NCBI GenBank assembly: GCA_964515475.1 | Contig: CAZEVD010000003.1 | Coordinates: 521-64,520, forward strand | Direction: 5' to 3' | Length of the DNA: 64,000 nucleotides | From: an uncultured Eubacteriales bacterium | GTDB lineage: Bacteria > Bacillota > Clostridia > TANB77 > UBA1234 | In this document: positions 14,688-62,374 of the stretch, in pieces | Numbering within the stretch: the first letter of the stretch is position 1 | How the letters are laid out: every line of letters begins with the position of its first letter | Position numbers and translations under genes: made by a program | Notes under the pieces: model-generated | The model's input: only the letters and a program-made list of their open reading frames with translations | Databases searched by the model: none | What the model was told of the DNA's origin: nothing

Positions 14688-14717
14688 TGTCCAAAAAAGG
14701 ACGTCCCCATTTGGACA
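14688..14717. repeat. 30-nt palindromic element TGTCCA-N5-GGACGTCCC-N4-TGGACA (copy 1)
   Basis: Near-identical architecture to copy 2 at 44391-44420. The internal GGACGTCC is itself palindromic. Lies upstream of the minus-strand fba promoter region. Confidence 0.6.
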
Positions 14718-19436: not shown

Positions 19437-19988
19437 TTAATCAAGCCACACAATGTCTGAAAATTCCAGACCACACTTTTGATAAATCGCCTCGACTTCC
19501 GCTCTCGAAACATCCTCCACATACCAATTGAAATATTTCTGGTAAAGTTCACGATTTTTCTTAAAAAGAAGAACTCGGCCATCTACAGTAAAAAGATCGA
19601 TAACATTCTCGCCTTTTTCCACATCTCTGCTGAAACCAAAACGTTCCAAATTTAAAACGCCATCGAGCGTAGTTACAGATTTCATAGAACACGGATTGAT
19701 ATCAGGACGTTTCTCGATAAAATCAGTCAAATATGACAAAACTTTGAAACCATCTTCTCGACTCATCCCTTCTGGCATCTTAAAAGGATTGCAATACCAG
19801 AAAATAACACCAACGTTATCATCCGCACGACCAGAATATTCTTGAATCCGATGATAATTGACGTAATACAATCTGTAGACATCGCCCTCCGGAATAGGAT
19901 GATCTTCAAAATCTGCTTCAAATTCGTAATCTCTGCTCAACGGATCGCAAGACCGGAATCGTTCTTTTAATTTCTCAAAAAATTTCAT
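19437..19988 (-). CDS. Hypothetical protein (about 184 aa), GC content above the local background
   Basis: ATG at 19988 is preceded by a GGGGG RBS and the ORF has its own terminator. I recognise no family. Local GC looks roughly 40% against a background near 28%. Confidence 0.55.
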   Translation of the reverse strand: MKFFEKLKERFRSCDPLSRDYEFEADFEDHPIPEGDVYRLYYVNYHRIQEYSGRADDNVGVIFWYCNPFKMPEGMSREDGFKVLSYLTDFIEKRPDINPCSMKSVTTLDGVLNLERFGFSRDVEKGENVIDLFTVDGRVLLFKKNRELYQKYFNWYVEDVSRAEVEAIYQKCGLEFSDIVWLD

Positions 19989-20206
19989 ACATTTCCCCCT
20001 CAATTGAGTATTAAATACAAATATGACGAATATGCTATTTTAGGTTATTATATCATCATTCGTTATAAATACAAGCTTCAATGCCATTACCATATTTTGG
20101 ATAATTGACTTTTCACGCGGTTTAGAGTAACATATGTAATTGACTCTCTTTTGTGTTTATGAGCACAAGACGAGACGAAATTTACTTAACAAAGGAGTAA
20201 TGATAA

Positions 20207-22614: not shown

Positions 22615-22809
22615 TTACTTTTTGGTTCTGATCACGACACGGTAACCAGACTTACGGTACGGATCAAGTTCAACCACAGCAGGGTTCCATTTTGCATCAC
22701 GATCATAAACGCCATGCGCATCATCTACTGCAGCCTTTTTCTTCATCGCCTCTTCGTGAGTAAAGCCATGCTCATTATCCCAGTTCTTAGAAAAAACAGA
22801 TTCGTACAT
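22615..22809 (-). CDS. Small hypothetical protein (64 aa), elevated GC
   Basis: ATG at 22809 lies 6 nt after a GGAGGAA RBS. The track ORF is over-extended upstream. Upstream promoter TTGGAA-N17-TATAAT. Local GC well above the background. Confidence 0.55.
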   Translation of the reverse strand: MYESVFSKNWDNEHGFTHEEAMKKKAAVDDAHGVYDRDAKWNPAVVELDPYRKSGYRVVIRTKK

Positions 22810-23023
22810 ACTTAATTCCTCCATATAATAAATATATTGTTGATTGTTCTTGGTGCACTTCCGAAGGTAAATGCAAAAAATAAAAGTGCATACAATAATT
22901 ATACCATGTTTTACATAAATTTCCAACTATATGGAGCTTTTTATTTTTAAATAATACCATAAAATTCCAGTTGCAAATTACAAAAAAATAGACCTCTTTT
23001 TCAAAGAAGTCTATAAAAGCATA

Positions 23024-40175: not shown

Positions 40176-40498
40176 CTATTGTGTTAATTTAAAATTATTG
40201 CAAGAAGTTTCTAGCTCTGTTAAGCTTATTTCGTTATAATTAGCTAACCATTCTATATTTGCCACCATTTTTTCTAAATTAGCAAATGTTGACTTCCCAA
40301 GTCTTTGTACCACAATTCTTTATTATTAAAAATTACATTTAATTGTTCTAAATCTGTTTGTGTTGAAACATTTTCTGAATTATGCAAATTATCTTCTTGA
40401 TTTAAATTTCCCATAGGACCTTTACTTAATAATTGTCTTGTTATAACAATAGCACAAACAATCATTATAATTATTATAATGATTTTCTTTTTATTCAT
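40176..40498 (-). pseudogene. Small N-terminally anchored protein (about 106 aa if repaired) with an apparent -1 frameshift in a C3/G3 run near 40297-40300
   Basis: ORF 40274-40498 ends at ..WYKDLGSQHLLI*. The -1 frame continues as LGKSTFANLEKMVANIEWLANYNEISLTELETSCNNFKLTQ* up to the terminator. One extra G joins the two segments. Confidence 0.45.
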
Positions 40499-40515
40499 AA
40501 GTTTTCCTCACTTTT

Positions 40516-40613: not shown

Positions 40614-40619
40614 ATATTT

Positions 40620-42983
40620 TTAAGAATCTCTTACTGTTGCTTCATATTCACTTGTTACTTTGTCGATAACTTTATTGAATATTGCAAGTACCTCTTCATC
40701 ACTTAAAGTTTTTTCTTTGTCATTGAATGTTAATGAGTAAGCAATAGATTTTTTGCCTTCACCAACATTAACACCTTCATAAACATCGAATACTTCAAGA
40801 TTAATTAATTTCTTACCAGCAGCTTTTCTAATGATAGCTTCAATGTCAGCTGATTTAGCATCTTTAGATACAACGAATGCAACGTCTTTAGATACATTAG
40901 GGAATTTAGAAATTTCTTTGTATTTCATATTTTCATGATTTGCATTTTCTAATTCTTCAAGATTTAATTCCATTACATATACATTATCCTTAGTTATATT
41001 TGGATGAATCTTTCCTATTATACCTAGTTTCTTACCATCTACTACGATAGTTGCGGCTTGACCAGGATGTAATTCAGCAGGAATATCTTCAACTACTAAA
41101 GAATATCTATTCTTGAATCCTAAGTAATCAAGTAATTCTTCCATAACACCTTTTAATACATAGAAATCTACAACTTTCTTTTCAAGACCTACAGTATATA
41201 CACCAGTCATTAAAGCAGCAAGTGATAAGTGTTCACCGTATTGACCATTAATTTTATGGAAGCTCTTTCCGATTTCAAATAATGAAATATCTTTTTCATT
41301 ACGAGCTTTGTTATATTCATAAACCATCTTTAATGATGGAATTAAACTATTACGTAATGCATTTCTTTCTTCTGTCATTGGGTCTAATATTTTTACAACT
41401 TCAAAATCCATTGTTGAATATTTAGGAACCTCAGCAACTGGAATTAATGCATAACTTAATGTTTCGTTCAATCCAAGTTCAACCATTTTGTTTCTAGCTG
41501 ATCTCTTGAATTTATCATAACTACCTGGAGTAACTTCAAGAATCATTTTCTTACCTTGTATATTATCCATTCCATAGTAACGACCGATGTCATGAATCAC
41601 GTCTTCTTTGATTTGTAAATCCCATCTTCTTGAAGGAATCTTAACAATAATATTTTCGTTATTAGCTTCAGCTTCAATTCTTAATCTCTTTAAGATGTGA
41701 TAAATTGTATCGTTTGATACATCTATTCCAAGAATATCTCTTACAGATTGTATTGAGAATTCTAATACTCTATCATCTGAATTTGTTGTGTTATATTCAC
41801 ACATACCGCCAACAACTTTAGCGTCAGCATATTTTTCTAACAATGCACAGCTTCTTTCGATAGCAAGTAATGTTCTCTTTGGATCTAATCCTTTTTCAAA
41901 TCTGTTACTAGCTTCACTTCTTAAAATTTTCTTAGAAGTTAATCTTACTTTTACAGGGTTGAATATAGCAGCTTCAATAACGATATTCTTTGTATCATTT
42001 TCAACTTCTGTAGATAAACCACCCATAACACCTGCAAGACCGATTGCTTTTTCTTTATCTGCAATTACGATATCGTTTGTAGATAAAGTTCTTTCTTGTT
42101 CATCAAGTGTTGTAAGCTTTTCATTTTCTTCAGCCATTCTTACAACTAAAGTATCGCCTAATCTATCAGCATCATAATAATGTAAAGGTTGACCAACTTC
42201 TAACATTACGTAGTTAGAAATATCTACAACGTTATTTATAGGTCTGATACCAGAAGCGATAAGTCTATTTTGCATCCACTTTGGACTTTCTTTAATTACT
42301 ACATTTTCAACTTTTTTAGCATAGAATAAAGAACAGTTTTCTGTTTCAATTTTCAAATTAAATTTCTTTGAAAAATCATCATCAGATTCTGTATAGTTTG
42401 TATCAACTTCATTCATTGGTAAATCATATAAAGCAGCAACTTCATAAGCCATACCTAATATAGAAAGTAAGTCACCTCTATTTGCAGTAAGTTCAAAATC
42501 AATTACTTCATCATCCATACCAAGGTATTTAACTGGATCTCCGCCAATTTCAGCATCTTCACCAAGTTCGGCAATACCTTCTATATCTTCAGGTTTTAGG
42601 AATTTGTGTTCTAAACCAAGTTCTTCAACTGAGCAAAGCATACCACAAGATTCTACACCTCTAATTTTTCCTTTTTTAATTGTTCCACCTGGTAATTTAG
42701 CATTAACTAATGCAACGATTACTTTGATACCAACTCTTACGTTTGGAGCACCACAAACAATATTTAAAACTTCTGTACCAACATCAACTTTACATACATG
42801 AAGGTGATCAGAATCAGGATGCATTTCACATTCCAAAACTTTACCAATAGTTAAACCTTCAACTTCAAGAAGTTTTTTGGCACTATCATATTCGTTTCCT
42901 ATGTTTGTCATGTCTTCGCCAAGAGTAACCATATCAACAGGAACTTTTATATAATCTCTTAAAAAATTAAGACTTAGTTTCAT
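40620..42983 (-). CDS. pheT: Phenylalanine--tRNA ligase beta subunit
   Basis: 787 aa. tRNA-binding, B3/B4, B5 and FDX-ACB domain order. Downstream of pheS. Confidence 0.95.
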   Translation of the reverse strand: MKLSLNFLRDYIKVPVDMVTLGEDMTNIGNEYDSAKKLLEVEGLTIGKVLECEMHPDSDHLHVCKVDVGTEVLNIVCGAPNVRVGIKVIVALVNAKLPGGTIKKGKIRGVESCGMLCSVEELGLEHKFLKPEDIEGIAELGEDAEIGGDPVKYLGMDDEVIDFELTANRGDLLSILGMAYEVAALYDLPMNEVDTNYTESDDDFSKKFNLKIETENCSLFYAKKVENVVIKESPKWMQNRLIASGIRPINNVVDISNYVMLEVGQPLHYYDADRLGDTLVVRMAEENEKLTTLDEQERTLSTNDIVIADKEKAIGLAGVMGGLSTEVENDTKNIVIEAAIFNPVKVRLTSKKILRSEASNRFEKGLDPKRTLLAIERSCALLEKYADAKVVGGMCEYNTTNSDDRVLEFSIQSVRDILGIDVSNDTIYHILKRLRIEAEANNENIIVKIPSRRWDLQIKEDVIHDIGRYYGMDNIQGKKMILEVTPGSYDKFKRSARNKMVELGLNETLSYALIPVAEVPKYSTMDFEVVKILDPMTEERNALRNSLIPSLKMVYEYNKARNEKDISLFEIGKSFHKINGQYGEHLSLAALMTGVYTVGLEKKVVDFYVLKGVMEELLDYLGFKNRYSLVVEDIPAELHPGQAATIVVDGKKLGIIGKIHPNITKDNVYVMELNLEELENANHENMKYKEISKFPNVSKDVAFVVSKDAKSADIEAIIRKAAGKKLINLEVFDVYEGVNVGEGKKSIAYSLTFNDKEKTLSDEEVLAIFNKVIDKVTSEYEATVRDS

Positions 42984-43002
42984 ATCAATCTATATCTCCC
43001 TT

Positions 43003-44049
43003 CTACACATTTTCAACGTCTGTTTCATCGAATTGTTTTAAGAATCTAATATCGTTTGTATACATGTAACGAATATCAGGAATTGCATATCTAAACATTG
43101 CAAGTCTATCAAGACCTGTACCGAATGCGAATCCAGTAAATTTATCTGGATCATATCCACCCATTCTTAAAACGTTAGGATGAACCATACCAGCACCAAG
43201 TAATTCTATCCAACCTGTTTTCTTACAAAGTGGACAACCTTTACCACCACATTTGAAGCAAGTTACATCAACTTCACAAGATGGTGATGTGAATGGGAAA
43301 TAACTTGGTCTGAAACGTACTTTAGTTTCTTCACCTAAAAGTTTCTTTGCAAATATTTCAAGTGTACCTTTCAAATCTGCAAGAGAAATATTTTTATCAA
43401 TTACTAAACCTTCAACTTGTCCGAATTGATGAGAGTGAGTTGCATCATCATCTCTTCTATAAGTTTTACCAGGACAAATAACCCTGATAGGAGATTTTTC
43501 TGTATTAGCTTGCATAACTCTTGATTGAGATGCAGATGTTTGAGTACGAAGTAAATACTCTTCATCAATATAGAAAGTATCTTGAGCATCACGAGCAGGA
43601 TGTCCAACTGTATAGTTTAAAAGTCTGAAACAATGTTCATCATCTTCAAGTTCTGGACCATCTACAACGTCATATCCCATTGATACGAATAAATCTTCAA
43701 CTTCTTCAATTATTCTATTAAAAGGATGTTTAGAACCTCTCATGTTTTTAACAGAAGGTAAAGAAATATCAATAGTTTCTTCTTTTAATTTTCTATTAAC
43801 AGCTTCTTCTTCTAAACGTGTTTTGATAGTTTCATAACCTGTATTAAAAGCTTCTCTTAATACATTAACTTGCATACCATACTCTTTCTTTTCTTCAGCA
43901 GGTACATCTTTAATGCCACTATTAAGCTCCGTTATGATACCTTTCTTTCCTTGGTATTGAACTTTTAAATCATTTAATTCTTGCATTGTTTTAACAGCAT
44001 CGAATTTTTCTAAAAGTTCTTTTTTCAATAGTTGAATCTTCTCTTCCAT
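43003..44049 (-). CDS. pheS: Phenylalanine--tRNA ligase alpha subunit
   Basis: Class II aaRS motifs 1-3 (for example FRPSYFPFTSPS, GFAFGTGLDRLAM). 348 aa. Confidence 0.95.
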   Translation of the reverse strand: MEEKIQLLKKELLEKFDAVKTMQELNDLKVQYQGKKGIITELNSGIKDVPAEEKKEYGMQVNVLREAFNTGYETIKTRLEEEAVNRKLKEETIDISLPSVKNMRGSKHPFNRIIEEVEDLFVSMGYDVVDGPELEDDEHCFRLLNYTVGHPARDAQDTFYIDEEYLLRTQTSASQSRVMQANTEKSPIRVICPGKTYRRDDDATHSHQFGQVEGLVIDKNISLADLKGTLEIFAKKLLGEETKVRFRPSYFPFTSPSCEVDVTCFKCGGKGCPLCKKTGWIELLGAGMVHPNVLRMGGYDPDKFTGFAFGTGLDRLAMFRYAIPDIRYMYTNDIRFLKQFDETDVENV

Positions 44050-44059
44050 TTGATTTCCT

Positions 44060-44345
44060 CCTTTTATATTTGAAAGATTATTATTTTTATATAAACAAAA
44101 ATCCCAAACACAATTAAATGTGTTTGGGACGAATTAACTCGCGGTACCACCCAACTTCCGATTTTATAAATCGACAGCTCGTAGGAAGATTAACGCTCTT
44201 CGCACGTACTAATTTCTTAGCAAGACTCCCACATCCGAAATTCATTTACATGTTTATCTTGCAAAGGCTCTCAGCCGGTGACCTTCACTTTCTTTAAAGA
44301 ACTCACGTAAACTACTAAATATGTGATCTTTGTCAAAAACTAAAA
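44060..44345 (-). promoter_or_regulatory. T-box riboswitch leader of pheST (Phe-specific expected)
   Basis: Conserved T-box sequence TTGGGTGGTACCGCGAG (plus-strand complement at 44138-44154). Followed by the terminator hairpin CCCAAACACATTTAATTGTGTTTGGG and a U-run (44097-44130). Promoter TTGACT-N17-TATTAT at 44348-44376. Confidence 0.85.
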
Positions 44346-44390
44346 CTATAATACTATCTTTTATAAGAAAAGTCAAATTATTTTTCAAGA

Positions 44391-44420
44391 TGTCCAAACG
44401 AGGACGTCCCTAGTTGGACA
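44391..44420. repeat. 30-nt palindromic element TGTCCA-N5-GGACGTCCC-N4-TGGACA (copy 2)
   Basis: Same architecture as copy 1 at 14688-14717. Lies 15 bp upstream of the pheS leader -35 and directly abuts the high-GC island's terminator. Confidence 0.6.
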
Positions 44421-44427
44421 AAAAAAA

Positions 44428-44450
44428 CGGGCCCCCGAAGGGGCCCTGCT
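44428..44450 (-). terminator. GC-rich terminator of the island gene
   Basis: GGGCCCCTTCGGGGGCCC followed by T8 on the minus strand. Confidence 0.7.
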
Positions 44451-44475
44451 CACCAACCGGGAGCGAGTGCTTGGA

Positions 44476-45090
44476 TTATTTGGACTTTTCAACCAAGTCC
44501 ATTGCATCCTCGAGCGAGTAGCCCAGAGCCATAAGACGCTCGATCTTTTCCTTTGCCTTATCAACAGGCTTCGGTGCAGCAGGTTTCGGTGCATCCTCAT
44601 AGATATTCTTATCAGGATTGTACACCTTACCAGCCGGCGCCTTGGTCGGGTCGAGTTTCACACGCTCACCATAACCAACAATCTCGTTACCATCCTTATC
44701 CTTTACGGTCAGGAGAGTCCAAGCGTTCTTGGCAGGATCTGCGAGCAGTTCGTCTGCGGGCTTTTTGAGCATTGCATCATCGTCATCTTCAGGTTCTTCT
44801 TCAACCTCAGGCTTTTCCTTGCGGAATCTCCCGAAAATATCACAGAAGAGTTCGGAAATCGAAGTATCGCGGATTGCGGCTACGACTTTCAGACCGATGA
44901 TTACGAATGCTGCGATGCGGAGAATCGTCTTGGCTGCTGCCGGGATCGGAATCAGATCGGGGATGAACAGCCATACGAGGATTACTGCGATTGCGCCAAT
45001 GAAGGCAAACTTTTCCCAGCGGGGAATATTGTTCTTCTTAGCGGGTGCGGAAGGGGTTGCGGTGGGTTTACTTGTCTTCTTCTTAGCCAT
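44476..45090 (-). CDS. High-GC hypothetical two-TM membrane protein with an acidic linker and a C-terminal UBA/RuvA-domain-III-like helix-hairpin (204 aa)
   Basis: AGGAG RBS 7 nt before the ATG. Lys-rich N-terminus and two hydrophobic helices. Acidic stretch EVEEEPEDDDD. C-terminus KIERLMALGYSLEDAMDLVEKSK. Codon usage is strongly GC-biased, unlike all neighbours. Confidence 0.75.
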   Translation of the reverse strand: MAKKKTSKPTATPSAPAKKNNIPRWEKFAFIGAIAVILVWLFIPDLIPIPAAAKTILRIAAFVIIGLKVVAAIRDTSISELFCDIFGRFRKEKPEVEEEPEDDDDAMLKKPADELLADPAKNAWTLLTVKDKDGNEIVGYGERVKLDPTKAPAGKVYNPDKNIYEDAPKPAAPKPVDKAKEKIERLMALGYSLEDAMDLVEKSK

Positions 45091-45248
45091 GGTAGGCTCC
45101 TTTCTGCGCCTTTAGCGCTTGCAAAAAATGTCACTGAATCCAAGCTTTAGAAATAACGGGAAAAACCCATCATCTCATGGAGTCTATAATGCAGTCAGTG
45201 CGTCCACAAAATATATCCAATACCACAAATCGTTATGATACATCTTAT

Positions 45249-45277
45249 ATTTTAGCATCTTCTCCAGTTTTTGTCAA
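45249..45277 (-). promoter_or_regulatory. AT-rich consensus promoter TTGACA-N17-TAAAAT driving the high-GC island gene
   Basis: Spacing counted. Lies exactly at the AT-to-GC composition boundary, about 150 nt upstream of the island ATG. Confidence 0.55.
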
Positions 45278-45366
45278 CATAACAACTCTACATTCGCGCT
45301 CTATAAAACAAATTTTAGTACCTATTTTATGTATTAACTTTTTCTCTTTATATTCAAAACATAAAA

Positions 45367-45393
45367 AGATACAGAGAAATATTCTCTGTATCT
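45367..45393 (-). terminator. Terminator of the DUF512 gene
   Basis: Hairpin GATACAGAGAA..TTCTCTGTATC followed by a T-run on the minus strand. Confidence 0.65.
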
Positions 45394-45414
45394 CTAAAAA
45401 ACGAACTATATAAT

Positions 45415-46725
45415 TTATTTTCCATCTATAATTGCACTTATAAAGCAGCAACCCAAAGAATCTGTTTTCACGGCTTTTATATTCAATGCCTTTTCTACTT
45501 CTTCTAATGTTACATTATCTAAGAAGATATCTGCATCATCTTTAAGCATTTTTCTATCTAATATTAAATATTCACCCAGCTCTTTATCCTTTAAACCAGC
45601 TATCAAATCTCCTCCAGTAATTAACCCTGTAACTGTTATTTCTGGTCCAAAAAAGTGATTTTCTATGGCATATACATTAATTTTTAAGCCTTCAAATTTT
45701 TGTTCTAAAATATTGGCTTTTTCGCGGATAAACTCATGAGCACCTTTACCTGTTGCCAACGAAACCGTTTTGTTTATAACTCTAGCTTTCTCTTTCTTTA
45801 AAGCTTCTTCAAAATTTGCATTAAAATAGGCCAATAAACCTATCCCATCTTCTAATTGTTCAAAATTTTCGTATCTTTCATATTCAGGAATATGTCTTTC
45901 AGCTTTTATATAAAATTCGTCTGCGCAGAAAACTATATTAGAATCAAAGTCCTTTTTGAATTTTTCTTGCCATTGCTCAATTTGCTCAATAGCTTTAGCA
46001 GCAGATTCCTTCGTAAAGCCTTCCAGCTTAGCTAATCCTTCTCTATGTTTTGTAAGTCCAACTGGCACAATTGCTATAGACAAAACATTTGGATAAAAAC
46101 TTGCAAGTTCTCTAATTGTTTTATCCAAAACCTCTCCGTCGTTTATCCCTGGGCATAAAACCACTTGCGTATTTAGCTGTATATCATGCTCCGTTAAATA
46201 TTTGATGTAATCTAATATCTTACCTGCATTTCTATTATTAAGCATTTTAACTCTAACATCAGGATCTGTCGCGTGAACAGAAACATTTATTGGACTTAAA
46301 TGATAGTTTATTATTCTATCTAAATCTCTATATCCAGAATTTGTAAAAGTAACATAGTTACCCGTCATAAAAGAAAGTCTGAAATCATCGTCTTTAAATA
46401 TTAAAGTTTCTCTAACGTCAAGTGGCAGTTGATCCATAAAACAAAAAATACATTTATTAGCACAATTTCTTGGTTTATCTATTAATTGTTCTTCAAAAAC
46501 TAAGCCAATATCTTCATTTTCTTCTTTTTCGATTTCAACATCCCAAACTTCACCATCTGGCTTTTCAATTTCTAAAGTTACTACTTCATCAAAAATTTGA
46601 AACTTATAATCTAATATGTCATTTATCTCAACACTATTCACAGAAAGCAAATAATCTCCACCAGAAATTTCCATTTCTTCAGCAATTGAGCCTTTTTCCA
46701 CATCTTTTATTAATATTCTTTTCAT
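45415..46725 (-). CDS. PDZ-domain radical-SAM protein (DUF512 family)
   Basis: N-terminal PDZ, then a CxxxCxxC radical-SAM motif (CANKCIFC) and a DUF512-like C-terminus. 436 aa. Confidence 0.75.
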   Translation of the reverse strand: MKRILIKDVEKGSIAEEMEISGGDYLLSVNSVEINDILDYKFQIFDEVVTLEIEKPDGEVWDVEIEKEENEDIGLVFEEQLIDKPRNCANKCIFCFMDQLPLDVRETLIFKDDDFRLSFMTGNYVTFTNSGYRDLDRIINYHLSPINVSVHATDPDVRVKMLNNRNAGKILDYIKYLTEHDIQLNTQVVLCPGINDGEVLDKTIRELASFYPNVLSIAIVPVGLTKHREGLAKLEGFTKESAAKAIEQIEQWQEKFKKDFDSNIVFCADEFYIKAERHIPEYERYENFEQLEDGIGLLAYFNANFEEALKKEKARVINKTVSLATGKGAHEFIREKANILEQKFEGLKINVYAIENHFFGPEITVTGLITGGDLIAGLKDKELGEYLILDRKMLKDDADIFLDNVTLEEVEKALNIKAVKTDSLGCCFISAIIDGK

Positions 46726-46804
46726 GATTTCACCTTCTTATTATGTAAATTCGCCAATTAATTAAAAAAGCAACTTAAATCATTATAAGTTGCTTTTTCT
46801 CTTC

Positions 46805-48893: not shown

Positions 48894-50009
48894 TTAATCT
48901 CCCAAGCAAACTCCTATACGTCTAGCTGTTGTTATCCAATCACCATCTAAATCAACTGGTTTGATATTTGAAGAAGCTGCACCAATTTTTGTTTCTTTTC
49001 CAGCAACCTCATCCAAAGGTACATGTGTAATTTTTCCGTTTGTGAATGTAACCATTTCATTAAATTTTCCATCAATTGCAAGTTGCATTGCCATAGAACC
49101 ATATTCAGTAGAAAGTATTCTATCATATGCACATGTATTTCCACCTCTTTGCAAATATCCAAGAGTCGTATTTCTTGCTTCAATACCTGTAAGCTTTTCT
49201 ATTTCTTTTGCTACATAATCTCCAGCACCACCAAGTCTTACTGAGTCTGGACTATCTCCTACAGTCGCTTTAACCATTAATTCTCCATCAACAGGTTTAG
49301 CTCCTTCTGCAACAACTATAATACTATGTCTTTTTCCTAGTTCTCTTCTTTGTCTTATTTTTTCCGCAACTTTATTTAAATCATATGGTATTTCTGGTAT
49401 TAAAATTGTATCTGCTCCACCAGCAATTCCTGCAGCTAGAGCAATCCAACCTGCATATCTTCCCATAACTTCAAGAATTAAAACTCTTCCATGAGATTCT
49501 GCAGTTGTTCTAATTCTATCTATAGCTTCAGTTGCAACATCTACCGCTGTATAAAAGCCGAAAGTTATATCTGTATGTGGAACATCATTATCAATTGTTT
49601 TTGGAACACCAATAACATTTAAACCTCTTCTAGTAAAATCCCTTCCTGATTTTAAAGAACCATCTCCACCAACAACAATCAAACAATCAAAATTATCTTT
49701 TTTCAATCTTTCTACAATTTCAACAGATTTATCAATATATTCTGTTTCGCCTTTTTCATTTTTTACAGGAATAGCAAAAGCATTTGTTTTGTTATTAGAA
49801 CCTAAAACTGTTCCACCTTTTGAAATAATACCTCCTGTAACACGAGGATCTAATTTGATGTATCTGTTTTCAATCAAACCTTTGTATCCTTCAAGAAAAC
49901 CATACACTTCAACACCTGCATATTCCGCAGTTTTTACAACACCTCTTATTACAGCATTAAGACCTGGGCAATCTCCACCAGCAGTTAAAATACCAACTTT
50001 TTTTACCAT
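48894..50009 (-). CDS. pfkA: 6-phosphofructokinase (long-form PFK; ATP- versus PPi-dependence unresolved)
   Basis: GILTAGGDCPGLNAVIRG and GGDGS motifs, MGR motif. 371 aa. Confidence 0.85.
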   Translation of the reverse strand: MVKKVGILTAGGDCPGLNAVIRGVVKTAEYAGVEVYGFLEGYKGLIENRYIKLDPRVTGGIISKGGTVLGSNNKTNAFAIPVKNEKGETEYIDKSVEIVERLKKDNFDCLIVVGGDGSLKSGRDFTRRGLNVIGVPKTIDNDVPHTDITFGFYTAVDVATEAIDRIRTTAESHGRVLILEVMGRYAGWIALAAGIAGGADTILIPEIPYDLNKVAEKIRQRRELGKRHSIIVVAEGAKPVDGELMVKATVGDSPDSVRLGGAGDYVAKEIEKLTGIEARNTTLGYLQRGGNTCAYDRILSTEYGSMAMQLAIDGKFNEMVTFTNGKITHVPLDEVAGKETKIGAASSNIKPVDLDGDWITTARRIGVCLGD

Positions 50010-60392: not shown

Positions 60393-60631
60393 GAACTATT
60401 TTAGGGCCGTTTAAACAAAAGCCCGAATTCATAGGTATTATATCATAGAATACATAAAAAAGGAAGAAAGTGTTAAATTTAATCAAAAATACTGTAAAAT
60501 CCTTGATTCCGTAGCTTTAAGCGTTTACATAACCAAAAGGGCGTGATATAATATAAGTGCAAAACTGCACAAGTTTTAGCAAATCTGCAGTACTATCAAA
60601 ACTGCAAAATTTTGAAAAGGAGTGTATCAAA

Positions 60632-62374
60632 ATGCACAAAAACCCGCATGTACAAACCCAACAACTTTTCCGGTATCCGCGCGACATCTTCAAGCTTTTC
60701 TGCAGTGTACTTCTTTTAAGTGGCCTTCAAGTAGTGATTGCCGACCTTTCATCATTCCTGCTTCAAGTTAGCAAAAACCTTATCTCTGACGGGTTTATCA
60801 CCCTTTCTTTGATTGTTTTTGCAATCTACTACGCAAGAGATCCTCTTCGCAGTTTGATTTACAACTTGCTAGATGAAAAGCGTAGCTTACTCGACGAAGC
60901 AGAAACAATCCATCTAAGCAGTATTGGCTCTGAAATTTTGCTTTCTGTTAAAGACAAAGTAAAGCGTCACGATGCAAACTGCGGATGTGAGGAAACCATG
61001 ACTTCCAGCAACATTTTATCCACTTTGAAAAGTTACGTGCAACTTTCTTGGAAACAGCAACTTTTCTGGTACAAAAATTCAGTAGAACTCATTTCTATCA
61101 TCATCATGTTCGTTGGATTTTTGTTAGTTTCAACGGTTGAAGTTTCTAATGTCCTTTTCTTCTATCTTATTACACTATTTGGTATCGCCATCGAAGTTTT
61201 CTTTAGATACCAATGGATTAAGATTAGAAACCGTTCTCGTAAACAACGAAGAGAATGCAACATGATTACTGACAACGCATTGCAAGACATCAAAGAACTT
61301 GAACCCTTTGATAATCGCCACGCAAAATACATGATTGAAAATTATGTATCTGCGAGCTCCGAATCCTTCAAACTTATTCGAAAGATGCAACGTGAAACCA
61401 ATTGGTATAGAGTTCTTCACAGCGTTCTTTCCATGTTCGCTATCTTAGGCATTGTGTCAATCAAAGTCCTAGAAAATGGAATCGGCAATTTTTCTCTCGA
61501 AGTTTTAGTTGGCGCAATTGCTCTCGTATCAATTTATAACCAATTGACGCAAAGAGTTGCATCAATCGTTGAAATCTTTTTTGACTATCGCGAGTTAAAA
61601 GAAGAGCAAAAGGTTCACAAGGAAGACTTTGACAACATCATGCAAGTATACTACGTTGAAAAACAAAAGCGTGAAGCTCCAGCAGCAACGCTTAAAAAGT
61701 TAACACTTCCGTCTTTCGATGTTGCATACGCAGAAGAATCTAACAACACCCCGTTCCGTCTAATTAACAACACTCATATCACTCTGAATAGAGGTGATTT
61801 TGTAATGCTTAGAGGCGTAACTGGGTCTGGCAAAACAACCATGATCAATTTGTTAACTAGGAACTTAGTTTTTGACGAGTTCAAACCTTCTATCGAAACC
61901 GAAAATGAAGGCGTCGTTAAAACACTTACTCACCAGGTCTTCATTTCACTTGGTACCAAACCGCTCATCACAGAGCTTACCCTTGGAAAAAGTGAGTATG
62001 ACCAAGAGAAGTTAATCGCAATTTTGAAAGCGTTCCATTTGTACGAAGAGTTCGAACAGAAAAATGAAGATGTTTTGAAACTTCTTTCTTCGACTACTAA
62101 AACTCGTTTTTCTGCTGGTCAACTTCAACGTCTCGCTTTGACAAGAACCCTCTTCAACTTGGAAGATGACGTACAGATTGTTGCTTTTGATGAGTCCATC
62201 AATAACTTGGATGATGGCATTGCCCAACAGGTACTCGCTTTCATTAGAGAATACTGCAAAGATAAACTTGTTGTTTTCTCGTCTCATCAGGTAGCACTGT
62301 GTAAGCAAGTTGCAAACCGCGAACTCGTATTTACCAACTCTTCTCTGAATACCTATTCAGTAAAAGAGGCTTAA
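60632..62374 (+). CDS. Fused ABC-exporter-like permease/ATPase (type I exporter TMD plus divergent NBD), elevated GC
   Basis: ATG at 60632 with an AAAGGAG RBS. About 6 TM helices. Walker A GVTGSGKTT, divergent signature FSAGQLQRL, Walker B IVAFDES, H-loop SSHQ. No peptidase domain. GC clearly above the background. Confidence 0.65.
   Translation: MHKNPHVQTQQLFRYPRDIFKLFCSVLLLSGLQVVIADLSSFLLQVSKNLISDGFITLSLIVFAIYYARDPLRSLIYNLLDEKRSLLDEAETIHLSSIGSEILLSVKDKVKRHDANCGCEETMTSSNILSTLKSYVQLSWKQQLFWYKNSVELISIIIMFVGFLLVSTVEVSNVLFFYLITLFGIAIEVFFRYQWIKIRNRSRKQRRECNMITDNALQDIKELEPFDNRHAKYMIENYVSASSESFKLIRKMQRETNWYRVLHSVLSMFAILGIVSIKVLENGIGNFSLEVLVGAIALVSIYNQLTQRVASIVEIFFDYRELKEEQKVHKEDFDNIMQVYYVEKQKREAPAATLKKLTLPSFDVAYAEESNNTPFRLINNTHITLNRGDFVMLRGVTGSGKTTMINLLTRNLVFDEFKPSIETENEGVVKTLTHQVFISLGTKPLITELTLGKSEYDQEKLIAILKAFHLYEEFEQKNEDVLKLLSSTTKTRFSAGQLQRLALTRTLFNLEDDVQIVAFDESINNLDDGIAQQVLAFIREYCKDKLVVFSSHQVALCKQVANRELVFTNSSLNTYSVKEA

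What the first reader, a model, noticed from the sequence alone, without database searches (positions are those of the whole stretch)
44421..45277. Sharply bounded high-GC single-gene island between the pheST T-box leader and the DUF512 gene, fused to a host-like promoter
GC jumps from the genome background (about 28%) to roughly 50% over about 820 bp (44421-45240). The composition switch sits essentially at the predicted transcription start of an AT-rich consensus promoter (TTGACA-N17-TAAAAT, 45249-45277). The island carries its own SD, one 204-aa ORF with GC-rich codon usage, and its own GC-rich terminator (GGGCCCCTTCGGGGGCCC plus T8). The encoded protein has a Lys-rich N-terminus, two TM helices, a strongly acidic linker and a C-terminal 'LMALGYSLEDAMDLV' helix-hairpin that resembles UBA / RuvA domain III. 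I do not recognise this as a named family. There is no integrase, transposase or direct repeat at either end, so the acquisition mechanism is not evident. One end abuts a conserved 30-nt palindromic element (next finding). It could be a horizontally acquired accessory membrane factor, for example an anti-sigma/holin-like or signalling adaptor, recently captured under a native promoter.
Basis: partly seen in the sequence, partly recalled or inferred. Interest (0 to 1): 0.8.

Follow-up and report, generated by a model that had tools for sequence, protein, structure and literature searches.

The report
Persistently GC-rich hypervariable membrane-protein gene
A small membrane-protein gene far richer in G+C than its AT-rich host genome is not a recent import: it is an old, fast-changing occupant of one fixed chromosomal slot across a group of uncultured gut Clostridia, and its odd composition appears to be actively maintained.

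Summary
Window 44421-45240 has 49% GC against 30.6% elsewhere. It holds one genuine 204-aa gene ("X", 44476-45090, minus strand) with its own near-consensus promoter, Shine-Dalgarno (SD) site and terminator. X has GC3 (G+C at third codon positions) of 0.54, against 0.10-0.23 in the 13 clearly identified housekeeping genes.

Independent assemblies carry X at the same DUF512-X-T-box/pheS position, and its synonymous divergence (dS) matches the flanks. About 20 related genomes, whose DUF512 genes differ beyond synonymous saturation, carry a gene of the same build in the same slot. That build is a basic N-tail, two TM helices, an acidic run and a variable C-terminal head, with GC3 0.38-0.73.

The family has no Pfam, NCBIfam, PHROG or PADLOC match. 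Only 12 clusters were found among 1.84 billion representative proteins, and every member whose flanks could be read lies next to DUF512.

Alleles are swapped cassette-like between conserved leader and terminator. The neighbouring pheST block, not X, shows recent inter-species exchange. Passive amelioration cannot explain the GC. X's substitution spectrum is less AT-biased than that of pheST (p=0.004). Function and the force keeping GC high remain inferred.

The parts
45249..45277 (-). Promoter of X: TTGACA - 17 nt - TAAAAT with TG before the -10 (11 of 12 consensus). Predicted start near 45242.
   Evidence: The region is almost identical in L003 and L009, with one difference inside the promoter spacer in L009. 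Near-consensus promoters also sit upstream of slot genes in relatives.
45091..45242 (-). 5' leader of about 150 nt with intermediate GC (0.35-0.42). It is almost invariant among three alleles whose coding regions differ at dS 0.2-0.35. It contains an 11-bp hairpin at 45150-45176 and the SD AAAGGAG at 45097-45103.
   Evidence: The motifs GTG(G)ACGCACTG and GCTTGGA are shared with the L010 and L011 leaders. The regulatory role is inferred from conservation only.
44476..45090 (-). Gene X, 204 aa. Layout: polybasic N-tail (aa 1-23), TM1 (aa 24-42, nt 44965-45021), short loop with the IPDL motif, TM2 (aa 51-75, nt 44866-44940), a helix (aa 78-90), an acidic disordered linker (about aa 91-105, nt 44776-44820), a small beta region (aa 124-166) and a C-terminal helical hairpin (aa 178-202, nt 44485-44559). 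GC 0.50, GC3 0.54.
   Evidence: It is coding: dN/dS (nonsynonymous to synonymous substitution ratio) is 0.17-0.22, third-position changes dominate, and indels come in multiples of 3. Codon usage is the inverse of the host's.
44421..44475 (-). GC-rich 3' UTR and intrinsic terminator: stem 44429-44446, then T8 down to 44421.
   Evidence: The terminator is shared with L003, L010 and L011. Nucleotide homology to L010 resumes exactly at 44446.
44391..44420 (.). Palindromic element TGTCCAAACGAGGACGTCCCTAGTTGGACA. It is not part of the X unit.
   Evidence: It is absent from the L003-L008 allele and present in L001, L002 and L010. A second copy lies at 14689-14716.
44122..44376 (-). pheS promoter (44348-44376, TTGACT-17-TATTAT) and Phe T-box leader (44122-44339). 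This is the downstream neighbour and the start of the pheST block that shows recent inter-species exchange.
45365..45395 (-). Terminator hairpin of the upstream PDZ / radical-SAM / DUF512 gene (45415-46725). It shows that X is not co-transcribed by design.

Best explanation
X is an old, clade-restricted, monocistronic gene. It is not a fresh import. Shown: it is a real protein-coding gene under purifying selection, with its own strong sigma-A-type promoter, a conserved 150-nt leader, an SD site and an intrinsic terminator. Shown: its family occupies one fixed slot, immediately downstream of the PDZ / radical-SAM / DUF512 gene, in every member whose flanks could be read, and all these genomes have low GC. 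Shown: all members are strongly GC-enriched at all three codon positions. Shown: the lineages have been separate for longer than synonymous saturation. Inferred from the sequence and a single-sequence model: the protein is an N-in/C-in two-helix membrane hairpin. Its polybasic N-tail, acidic disordered linker and exchangeable C-terminal head (helical hairpin here; zinc ribbons or PxGYxW hairpins in relatives) all face the cytoplasm. Shown: the gene evolves fast (dN 4-30 times that of its neighbours). Shown in part: it is also replaced cassette-like by homologous recombination between the conserved leader and the stop codon or terminator, so the slot behaves as a hypervariable locus with old allele classes. 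Inferred: the high GC is actively maintained and is not a fading transfer signature. The GC step coincides with the coding region and transcript rather than the whole region, so the most likely force is selection on the nucleotide composition of the CDS or mRNA. One possibility is a stable, slowly translated message from a strong promoter, written in codons the host almost never uses. My guess for biological role is a membrane-tethered cytoplasmic adaptor or sensor involved in a conflict, for example with phage. The guess rests only on architecture and hypervariability, and I rate it at about 25%.
For: Real gene: dN/dS 0.17-0.22, third-position changes dominate, in-frame indels. Same locus in independent assemblies and alleles. 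X dS of 0.20 compares with flank dS of 0.08-0.19. In 80 related loci, GC-rich islands occur only right after DUF512 (12 loci), with one exception after pheT in L010. Slot genes share the architecture and have GC3 0.38-0.73, against 0.13-0.30 for DUF512 in the same loci. Weak but significant similarity links X to the L010, L011, L012 and L013 alleles. A profile search of 5.8 billion proteins gives 11 hits. An exhaustive HMM search of 1.84 billion representatives gives 12. Of the six extra members looked up, five show DUF512 immediately upstream. The sixth (P0012) is on contigs too short to show its neighbours. All six have GC3 0.51-0.65, against 0.18-0.25 for the neighbouring genes where those are present. 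DUF512 dS across the clade is 1.3 to saturated. A passively ameliorating gene should therefore now be at GC3 of about 0.34 or less even if it started at 1.0; this is my calculation from the standard two-rate amelioration model. Polarised third-position changes in X are 31 GC->AT to 17 AT->GC. The adjacent pheST control gives 46 to 64 on a GC3 of 0.157. The implied equilibrium GC3 is 0.39 (CI 0.25-0.55) for X and 0.21 for pheST, and X differs from the host ratio at p=0.004. Cassette replacement: L010 and L011 have DUF512 93% identical but X only 23% identical. Nucleotide homology stops mid-leader and resumes at the stop codon. Window against L010 is 80.8% upstream and 97.3% from the X terminator onward. 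Codon usage is the inverse of the host's: CTC 0.00 to 0.50, CGC 0.01 to 0.57, AAG 0.22 to 0.78, TTA 0.55 to 0. Genes expected to be highly expressed have the lowest GC3 (a PFK-sized ORF at 48894-50009, which corresponds to the Pfam-annotated PFK gene in L003, 0.10; L32 0.15).
Against: No experiment or expression data exist, because all genomes are uncultured MAGs. Homology between X and the most distant slot genes (L016, L018, L020, L023, L024) is not demonstrable, so for those only position, architecture and GC are shared. The polarised counts are small, and three-taxon parsimony is biased. The window lineage shows a net GC->AT excess (1.8 to 1), and some lineages sit at GC3 0.38-0.46, so maintenance may be partial. 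Other genes placed in the slot, and one gene after pheT in L010, are also GC-elevated. That fits a regional or gene-pool explanation as well as gene-specific selection. The whole-transcript folding z-score is only -2.2 on 20 shuffles, and the leader's is -1.1, so there is no strong sign of selected RNA structure. Topology rests on a pLDDT-66 single-sequence model and the positive-inside rule.
Confidence: 0.7

Rival explanations
1. Recurrent import. The slot is an integration or replacement hotspot, repeatedly refilled with cassettes from an unsampled GC-richer gene pool (phage, plasmid or other gut Clostridia). Each allele is then young and its GC reflects the donor.
For: Cassette-like allele replacement occurs. 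The flanks are mosaic. Other gene families in the slot are GC-elevated too. A GC-rich gene follows pheT in L010. The window holds mildly GC-rich accessory-looking genes at 60557-62374, 19437-20003 and 22615-22926. X's codon preferences look like those of a 45-55% GC Firmicute (the comparison is from my own knowledge).
Against: An exhaustive search of 1.84 billion representatives finds the family only as 12 clusters. Every member whose flanks could be read lies in this same slot in low-GC genomes. There are no hits in phage or plasmid records, IMG/VR viral contigs or JGI metagenomes. X dS equals flank dS within the species. L012 and L013 X diverge at the rate expected for vertical descent. Promoter, leader and terminator are native and shared.
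Confidence: 0.15
2. GC-biased gene conversion. The slot is a recombination hotspot, and repeated heteroduplex repair biased towards G/C drives up GC at all sites not otherwise constrained.
For: Recombination breakpoints fall at both ends of X. GC is raised at all three codon positions and partly in the UTRs, which is a DNA-level signature. The fixation spectrum is less AT-biased than in the neighbour. Recombination-associated GC3 increase in bacteria is established (Lassalle et al. 2015, from my own knowledge).
Against: The magnitude, GC3 +0.35 to +0.55, is far beyond reported bacterial effects. The recently recombined pheST block keeps GC3 at 0.16. The GC step is sharp at the CDS, while the promoter and the intergenic DNA inside the slot stay AT-rich.
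Confidence: 0.1
3. One reading: a single recent horizontal acquisition from a GC-rich donor, dropped behind a native promoter, and not yet ameliorated.
For: Sharp composition and codon-usage anomaly. No homologues in named families.
Against: X is present at the same locus in diverged strains, with dS equal to the flanks. Related species carry it with the same GC anomaly. Leader and terminator are conserved across species. No mobility genes, repeats or donor were found.
Confidence: 0.03
4. One ancient acquisition in the clade ancestor that is simply ameliorating slowly, with no maintaining force.
For: There is a net GC->AT excess in the window lineage (31 to 17). Some lineages are lower (GC3 0.38-0.46).
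Against: The flanks are synonymously saturated between lineages (dS 1.3 to above 2). The expected residual GC3 is 0.34 or less even from a start of 1.0, whereas most of the GC3 values measured for slot genes lie between 0.5 and 0.73. X's GC->AT to AT->GC ratio differs from the host control at p=0.004.
Confidence: 0.05
5. It is not a protein gene but a GC-rich structured non-coding RNA, as often marks RNA genes in AT-rich genomes. Alternatively, it is an assembly chimera.
For: GC-rich islands in AT-rich genomes are classic ncRNA signals. Long ORFs occur in several frames, for example 44467-45150 on the plus strand.
Against: No Rfam family matches in the island at gathering score, and only chance-level hits appear at E up to 10. 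The coding signature is clear. An SD, TM helices and conserved architecture are present. The antisense ORF is not conserved in L003. The fold z-score is modest. Identical junctions appear in independent assemblies.
Confidence: 0.02

Closest known systems
Compositionally atypical genomic islets from horizontal transfer (amelioration model of Lawrence and Ochman; cited from my own knowledge)
   Same: Sharp GC and codon-usage discontinuity confined to one gene. No homologues in the host's relatives outside a narrow clade.
   Different: The gene is conserved in one slot across lineages separated beyond synonymous saturation. There are no mobility genes, repeats or identifiable donor. The composition has not relaxed, and the substitution spectrum is less AT-biased than in the neighbouring gene.
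Hypervariable or idiomorphic loci with conserved flanks and old allele classes, for example O-antigen/capsule clusters (which also keep an atypical GC for long periods), pherotype loci and pilin genes (from my own knowledge)
   Same: The flanks are conserved, the centre is unalignable, and alleles are swapped by homologous recombination. Allele divergence far exceeds species divergence (L010/L011). The compositional oddity is long-lived.
   Different: This is a single small gene whose variable part is predicted to face the cytoplasm, not the surface. The anomaly is towards high GC in an AT-rich genome. The selective agent is unknown.
GC-biased gene conversion in recombining bacterial genes (Lassalle et al. 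2015; from my own knowledge)
   Same: GC3 is raised where recombination is frequent, and the effect is seen at all codon positions.
   Different: The effect is an order of magnitude larger and is sharply limited to one CDS. The recombined pheST neighbour is unaffected.
Small two-TM or single-TM membrane-anchored proteins such as CrgA, anti-sigma factors, holins and superinfection-exclusion or abortive-infection proteins
   Same: Small size, a TM hairpin and charged tails. The gene stands alone with its own promoter.
   Different: No significant HMM match to any of them: CrgA scores 12.1 bits against a cut-off of 24.8, and PHROGs and PADLOC give nothing. No sigma factor, endolysin or prophage lies nearby.
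DZR / zinc-ribbon membrane proteins (Pfam PF12773)
   Same: Family members P0013 and P0019 carry DZR zinc ribbons as the C-terminal head on the same N-terminal anchor.
   Different: The window protein has no zinc ribbon. Only the anchor and acidic linker are shared.

Membership tests
Recently acquired HGT islet | Atypical base composition and codon usage relative to the host | tested here: met
   GC 0.49 against 0.31. GC3 0.54 against a median of 0.17. Codon preferences are inverted.
Recently acquired HGT islet | Absent from the same locus in close relatives (patchy presence) | tested here: not met
   Present in all alleles and strains found and in about 20 related species-level genomes at the same slot.
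Recently acquired HGT islet | Mobility signatures (integrase, transposase, flanking repeats, tRNA target) or an identifiable donor | tested here: not met
   No such ORFs or repeats. No phage, plasmid or viral-contig match. The family is found only in this slot.
Recently acquired HGT islet | Divergence decoupled from the flanks (younger than the flanks) | tested here: not met
   X dS is 0.20 against flank dS of 0.08-0.19 between the window and L003.
UBA / RuvA domain III-like C-terminal domain | Significant match to the family HMM | tested here: not met
   PF00627 UBA scores 13.6 bits, E 0.063, against a cut-off of 22.4, over 16 residues only. There is no RuvA_C hit.
UBA / RuvA domain III-like C-terminal domain | Compact three-helix bundle | tested here: inconclusive
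   The single-sequence AlphaFold model gives two helices (178-188 and 193-202, pLDDT about 86). Foldseek against PDB gives no hit at E of 0.001 or better.
Holin or phage lysis / superinfection-exclusion protein | Phage or prophage context (endolysin, structural genes) or a PHROG match | tested here: not met
   The neighbours are housekeeping genes (L32, DUF512, pheST). The best PHROG E-value is 0.062.
Anti-sigma factor | Adjacent, co-transcribed ECF sigma factor gene and an anti-sigma domain | tested here: not met
   No sigma factor gene nearby, the gene is monocistronic, and there is no Pfam anti-sigma domain.
Known anti-phage defence systems (PADLOC) | Match to a defence-protein model | tested here: not met
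   No hits for X or eight related slot proteins. This does not exclude an undescribed system.
Integron-type gene cassette | attC-like palindrome bound to the cassette, with an integrase or cassette array | tested here: not met
   The palindrome 44391-44420 is an independent indel, absent in L003, with a second copy at 14689-14716 next to no GC island. There is no integrase.
Structured non-coding RNA (GC island in an AT-rich genome) | Rfam match or structure signal, and no coding signature | tested here: not met
   No Rfam hit in the island. dN/dS is 0.17-0.22 with in-frame indels. The fold z-score is -2.2.
Diversity-generating or targeted hypermutation locus | Locally elevated mutation rate, and a reverse transcriptase or template repeat nearby | tested here: not met
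   The synonymous rate is like the flanks. No template repeat or RT ORF lies in the interval.
Hypervariable locus maintained by recombination in conserved flanks | Conserved flanks with an unalignable centre, and allele divergence far above species divergence | tested here: met
   L010 against L011: DUF512 is 93% identical in amino acids (dS 0.74) but X is 23% identical. Homology breaks mid-leader and resumes at the stop codon. Window against L010: 80.8% upstream and 97.3% downstream.
Hypervariable locus maintained by recombination in conserved flanks | Evidence of diversifying (positive) selection on the variable part | tested here: inconclusive
   The gene-wide dN/dS of 0.17-0.22 is higher than in the neighbours (0.01-0.07) but below 1. 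There are too few close alleles for site tests.
T-box leader (neighbouring feature named in the finding) | Match to Rfam RF00230 | tested here: met
   86.4 bits, E 5.5e-19, model positions 1-219 of 219. This is slightly below the gathering score of 93.

The most novel reading that the evidence does not exclude
The GC-rich composition is itself the selected trait. On this reading a whole gene family has been held at GC3 0.5-0.7 inside GC3 0.17 genomes for longer than synonymous saturation. The reason would be that its transcript must differ from every other host message. It might resist AU-directed RNA decay or nuclease attack, for instance during phage infection or stress. Or it might be translated only in a particular tRNA state. 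This would be coupled to cassette-like exchange of a cytoplasm-facing sensor head, making X a previously undescribed kind of conflict or defence membrane sensor, possibly working with the neighbouring PDZ / radical-SAM / cobalamin methylase whose substrate is unknown.
Probability: 0.2. Interest if true: 0.85.

Novelty: new variant of a known kind. Interest (0 to 1): 0.6.

Why it matters
A sharp GC and codon-usage anomaly is routinely read as a timestamp of recent horizontal transfer. Here the anomaly is old, heritable, tied to one slot and one tiny gene family, and apparently maintained against the genome's AT pressure. This is a clean natural case for asking whether selection, or biased conversion, can act on the nucleotide composition of a single transcript.

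The locus also defines an undescribed, extremely narrow protein family: 12 clusters among 1.84 billion representatives. It shows the hallmarks of an evolutionary-conflict locus and always lies next to a cobalamin radical-SAM enzyme whose protein substrate is unknown (PMC11659888).

Practically, it warns that composition-based HGT detectors will mislabel such genes. It also shows that the AT-normal neighbour, pheST, is the part that actually moved recently between species.

Tried and rejected
- **Family libraries.** Pfam, NCBIfam, PHROGs and PADLOC scans of X and of 8-10 related slot proteins gave nothing above threshold.
- **Structure.** The PDB sequence profile gave one hit at E 0.57. Foldseek of the AlphaFold model against PDB gave nothing at E of 0.001 or better, and the model is too weak (pLDDT 66, pTM 0.24) for fold claims.
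- **Nucleotide and locus searches.** blastn of the island against phage and plasmid records gave no match. The IMG/VR scan with the family profile found none.
- **RNA families.** Rfam on the whole window gave nothing at gathering score, and only chance-level hits fell in the island.
- **RNA structure as the cause of the GC.** The z-scores are -1.1 for the leader and -2.2 for the transcript. The leader consensus fold across species is worthless at -2 kcal/mol.
- **Antisense 227-aa ORF (44467-45150, plus strand).** It is not conserved in L003 and is a shadow ORF of GC-rich DNA.
- **The 78-aa plus-strand ORF over the promoter and leader (45177-45413).** Only the part overlapping the conserved leader is conserved, so it is not a gene.
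- **The 11-nt direct repeat (43930 and 45231).** One copy lies inside pheS, and the match is at chance level.
- **Palindrome as island boundary.** Rejected because it is an independent indel.
- **The 116-125-aa two-TM genes after DUF512 in L027, L028, L033 and L035.** These belong to a different family with normal GC and are not X orthologues.
- **Literature.** A search for GC-rich genes in AT-rich Firmicutes found only general papers.
- **X as PDZ ligand of the DUF512 enzyme.** The C-termini of family members are too varied to support or reject this, and it was not tested.
Full report

Yes. The stretch 44421-45240 has 49.1% GC against 30.6% for the rest of the window. Other 820-bp windows average 30.6% (sd 2.8, maximum 39.9), so nothing else in 64 kb comes close.

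The interval holds one 204-aa ORF on the minus strand, 44476-45090. I call it X. Upstream are a near-perfect promoter, TTGACA-17-TAAAAT with an upstream TG, at 45277-45249, and an AAAGGAG Shine-Dalgarno (SD) site at 45103-45097. Downstream is a GC hairpin plus T8 terminator at 44446-44421.

The upstream gene (45415-46725) is a PDZ / radical-SAM / DUF512 protein with its own terminator. Downstream lie a second promoter and a full-length T-box leader, followed by pheS and pheT. The T-box scores 86.4 bits, E 5.5e-19, just below Rfam's gathering score.

One detail needs correcting. The sharp composition step lies about 30 nt upstream of the start codon, not at the transcription start. The maximum-likelihood boundaries are 44392 and 45122, and the 5' UTR has intermediate GC of 0.35-0.42.

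Most of the excess is synonymous. GC3 (G+C at third codon positions) is 0.54, against 0.10-0.23 for the clearly identified housekeeping genes and a median of 0.17 for 51 ORFs. GC1 and GC2 are also raised. Codon preferences are the inverse of the host's:

| Codon | Host share | X share |
|---|---|---|
| CTC | 0.00 | 0.50 |
| CGC | 0.01 | 0.57 |
| ACC | 0.02 | 0.50 |
| AAG | 0.22 | 0.78 |
| TTA | 0.55 | 0 |
| ATA | 0.40 | 0 |

**2. Is it a gene, and is the assembly sound?**

Three alleles exist: the window allele, and two others 93% and 88% identical to it in global amino-acid alignment (88% and 87% by BLASTP). They differ mainly at third codon positions. Their indels are multiples of three, and pairwise dN/dS (nonsynonymous to synonymous substitution ratio) is 0.17-0.22. 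X is therefore a translated gene under purifying selection, though its dN is 4-30 times that of its neighbours.

The long antisense ORF is not conserved. Rfam finds no RNA family in the island.

An assembly of a different sequencing run is 100% identical over 4055 bp spanning both junctions. Another is 99.7% identical over 2189 bp. The 88% allele lies in the same DUF512-X-T-box/pheS arrangement in six further assemblies. A chimera is excluded.

**3. Is it a recent import?**

No. Between the window and the L003 strain, X has dS 0.20. The flanking genes have dS 0.08-0.19, so X has diverged together with its surroundings.

A scan of one genome per species with the DUF512 protein returned 80 loci from uncultured Clostridia of ruminant, rabbit and human guts. 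In the relatives with DUF512 at 65-81% identity, the interval after DUF512 again holds a GC-rich gene of the same build. That build is a basic N-terminal tail, two hydrophobic helices, an acidic D/E run and a variable C-terminus. GC3 is 0.38-0.73, against 0.13-0.30 for DUF512 in the same loci.

Across all 80 loci of about 13 kb each, GC-rich islands occur only at this position, in 12 loci. The single exception follows pheT in L010. More distant relatives have the usual DUF512-der-plsY order and no island; I identify der and plsY there only by ORF size, TM count and the usual Clostridia gene order.

X shows weak but significant similarity to the L010, L011, L012 and L013 proteins. A profile search of 5.8 billion proteins found 11 members. 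An exhaustive HMM search of 1.84 billion representatives found 12.

I looked up six additional members. Five have DUF512 immediately upstream. The sixth is on contigs too short to show its neighbours. All six have GC3 0.51-0.65, against 0.18-0.25 for the neighbouring genes where present.

Promoter, leader motifs and the terminator hairpin are shared among the window, L003, L010 and L011.

**4. How the slot evolves.**

L010 and L011 have DUF512 proteins 93% identical (dS 0.74), but their X proteins are only 23% identical. Nucleotide homology stops in the middle of the leader and resumes exactly at the stop codon.

By contrast, L012 and L013 (DUF512 93%, X 75%) and the window and L003 (98% and 93%) fit steady vertical divergence at X's measured rate. 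The slot therefore combines fast point divergence with occasional cassette-like allele replacement between conserved ends. That is the behaviour of a hypervariable locus with old allele classes.

The recently transferred piece at this locus is the neighbour. The T-box-pheS-pheT block is 95-97% identical in nucleotides among the window, L003, L010 and L011. The 6.6 kb upstream is only 81% identical (window against L010 or L011) or 89% (L010 against L011). The break with L010 falls at X's terminator, position 44446.

**5. Why is it GC-rich?**

Passive explanations fail. Synonymous sites of DUF512 are saturated between the lineages, with dS from 1.3 to beyond estimation. Under the standard two-rate amelioration model with a host equilibrium GC3 near 0.17-0.21, the initial excess should have decayed to 8-20% or less of its starting value. 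The expected GC3 today would then be at most about 0.34 even from a start at 1.0. This is my calculation. Most of the GC3 values measured for slot genes lie between 0.5 and 0.73.

Within the species I polarised third-position changes by three-taxon parsimony:

| Gene | GC->AT | AT->GC | Implied equilibrium GC3 |
|---|---|---|---|
| X | 31 | 17 | 0.39 (95% CI 0.25-0.55) |
| pheST (control, GC3 0.157) | 46 | 64 | 0.21 |

Per site, X's spectrum differs from the host ratio at p=0.004. The counts are small and parsimony is biased. Even so, they point the same way as the deep comparison: something counteracts the AT pressure in X.

Translational optimisation is not the cause. The genes expected to be highly expressed have the lowest GC3. 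These are a 371-aa ORF at 48894-50009 that corresponds to the Pfam-annotated PFK gene in L003 (0.10) and L32 (0.15).

A locally raised mutation rate is not seen either, since X's dS is like that of the flanks.

Strong RNA structure is not evident. The z-score is -2.2 for the transcript and -1.1 for the leader.

Three candidates remain:
- **Selection on the nucleotide composition of the CDS or mRNA.** I prefer this because the GC step follows the CDS, while the promoter and inter-gene DNA in the slot stay AT-rich.
- **GC-biased gene conversion at a recombination hotspot.** The breakpoints support it. The magnitude, and the normal GC of the recombined pheST block, argue against it.
- **Recurrent import from an unsampled GC-richer pool.** Other GC-elevated genes in the slot and after pheT in L010 support it. 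Against it, the family exists nowhere else in 15 billion proteins, in phage or plasmid records, in viral contigs or in JGI metagenomes.

**6. What the protein probably is.**

A single-sequence AlphaFold model has mean pLDDT 66. It gives helices at residues 24-42 and 51-75, a further helix at 78-90, a disordered acidic segment at 90-110, four short strands, and a confident C-terminal helical hairpin at 178-202.

The N-tail carries eight Lys/Arg against one acidic residue. The inter-helix loop is short, with an IPDL motif conserved in the family as FP[DE]L. Basic residues follow the second helix. By the positive-inside rule both termini face the cytoplasm. This topology is an inference.

Family members keep the anchor and acidic linker but swap the C-terminal head. 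Variants include double zinc ribbons (P0013, P0019; Pfam DZR), PxGYxW hairpin repeats (the L012/L013 group) and an FxxFMxF helix (P0010-P0012, P0018).

The UBA / RuvA-III idea is not supported: UBA scores 13.6 bits against a cut-off of 22.4. No known fold or defence model matches.

The leader of about 150 nt is almost invariant among alleles whose synonymous sites differ by 20-35%. It contains an 11-bp hairpin preserved through a G-C to G-U change. That suggests regulation through the leader, by an unknown mechanism.

My best functional guess is a membrane-tethered cytoplasmic adaptor or sensor engaged in some evolutionary conflict. It rests only on architecture, hypervariability and allele exchange, and I rate it at about 25%.

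[quoted passage not shown] A functional link with X is possible but untested.

**7. Comparison with known systems and verdict.**

X looks like an HGT islet but fails three of that category's four defining features. It behaves like a hypervariable, recombination-maintained locus. It resembles O-antigen-type clusters in keeping an atypical composition for a long time, but in the opposite direction and as a single cytoplasm-facing membrane protein.

I file it as a new variant of a known kind: a persistent compositional island coinciding with a hypervariable orphan gene. The acquisition interpretation is not supported.

The protein description is largely right. The basic N-terminus, the two TM helices, the acidic linker and the absence of a named family all hold. 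Only the UBA / RuvA-like comparison fails.

I score interest at 0.6. That is above ordinary, because the maintained GC anomaly and the extreme narrowness of the family are surprising and testable. It is tempered by the lack of any functional or expression data and by the small counts behind the substitution-spectrum test.

Noticed in passing
window 40615-44446 (T-box, pheS, pheT); L003 7020-10449; L010 8449-12279; L011 8502-12587: The pheST block is 95-97% identical in nucleotides among four genomes. Their upstream 6.6 kb (PBP to DUF512) is only 81-89% identical. pheS is 100% identical in amino acids while DUF512 is 78-79%. This looks like a recent inter-species sweep or homologous import of the Phe-tRNA synthetase operon, with one breakpoint at X's terminator.
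   Followed up: partly
window 44391-44420 and 14689-14716: A palindromic element of about 28-30 nt (GTCCAAA..GGGACGTCC..TTTGGAC) occurs twice in the window, both times in T-rich intergenic DNA. The core GGGACGTCC is expected 0 times by chance. The copy next to X is missing from the L003-L008 allele but present in L001, L002 and L010, so it is an insertion/deletion polymorphism, possibly a small REP-like element.
   Followed up: partly
window 45091-45242 (-): The 5' leader of X is almost invariant among three alleles whose coding regions have dS 0.2-0.35. It contains an 11-bp hairpin at 45150-45176 kept through a G-C to G-U change. It shares the motifs GTG(G)ACGCACTG and GCTTGGA with the L010 and L011 leaders. 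It may be an unrecognised cis-regulatory leader. Rfam has no match.
   Followed up: partly
window 60557-62374 (+), 19437-20003 (-), 22615-22926 (-): Three further ORFs have mildly raised GC3 (0.39, 0.35 and 0.38, against a median of 0.17). The first is a 605-aa protein with an ABC-type / STAND-like NTPase domain. The other two have no Pfam match.
   Followed up: no
L010 12401-13219 (-): A second GC-rich island (GC 0.55, GC3 0.64) directly after pheT encodes a 272-aa protein with no Pfam or PADLOC match. The region after pheT is also poorly conserved between the window and L003 (about 76% at window 40302-40509), so it may be another variable slot.
   Followed up: no
L012 8155-8823, L013 8315-8983, L018 9307-9984, L015 8289-9005, L019 8313-9029, L093 1293-1964: A second unannotated family of 222-238 aa follows X in several relatives. 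It carries a conserved motif of the type GKWLIQxPSxKGQFVPNRGIG. GC3 ranges from 0.28 to 0.57. It has no Pfam, PHROG or PADLOC hit.
   Followed up: no
X promoters in L015, L016, L018-L020, L023-L025, L090, L091, L095-L098; window 46741-46749 (-): The 9-mer TTTACATAA recurs in or just upstream of the promoter spacer of the slot gene in many relatives, often twice. In the window lineage it sits instead 16 nt upstream of the DUF512 start codon. In the window as a whole its count is at chance level (4 against 3.3 expected). It may be an operator or extended promoter element.
   Followed up: partly
L036-L089 against L010-L035: In distant relatives (DUF512 45-54% identical, genomic GC 0.23-0.50), DUF512 is followed by ORFs whose size and TM count fit der (engA) and plsY. 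I identified these from size, TM count and the usual Clostridia gene order, not from a family scan. In the window's clade that pair is replaced by the X slot and pheST.
   Followed up: no
window 44122-44339 (-): The pheS T-box leader matches the full Rfam model (E 5.5e-19) but scores 86.4 bits, under the gathering score of 93. A default Rfam annotation of this genome would therefore miss it.
   Followed up: yes
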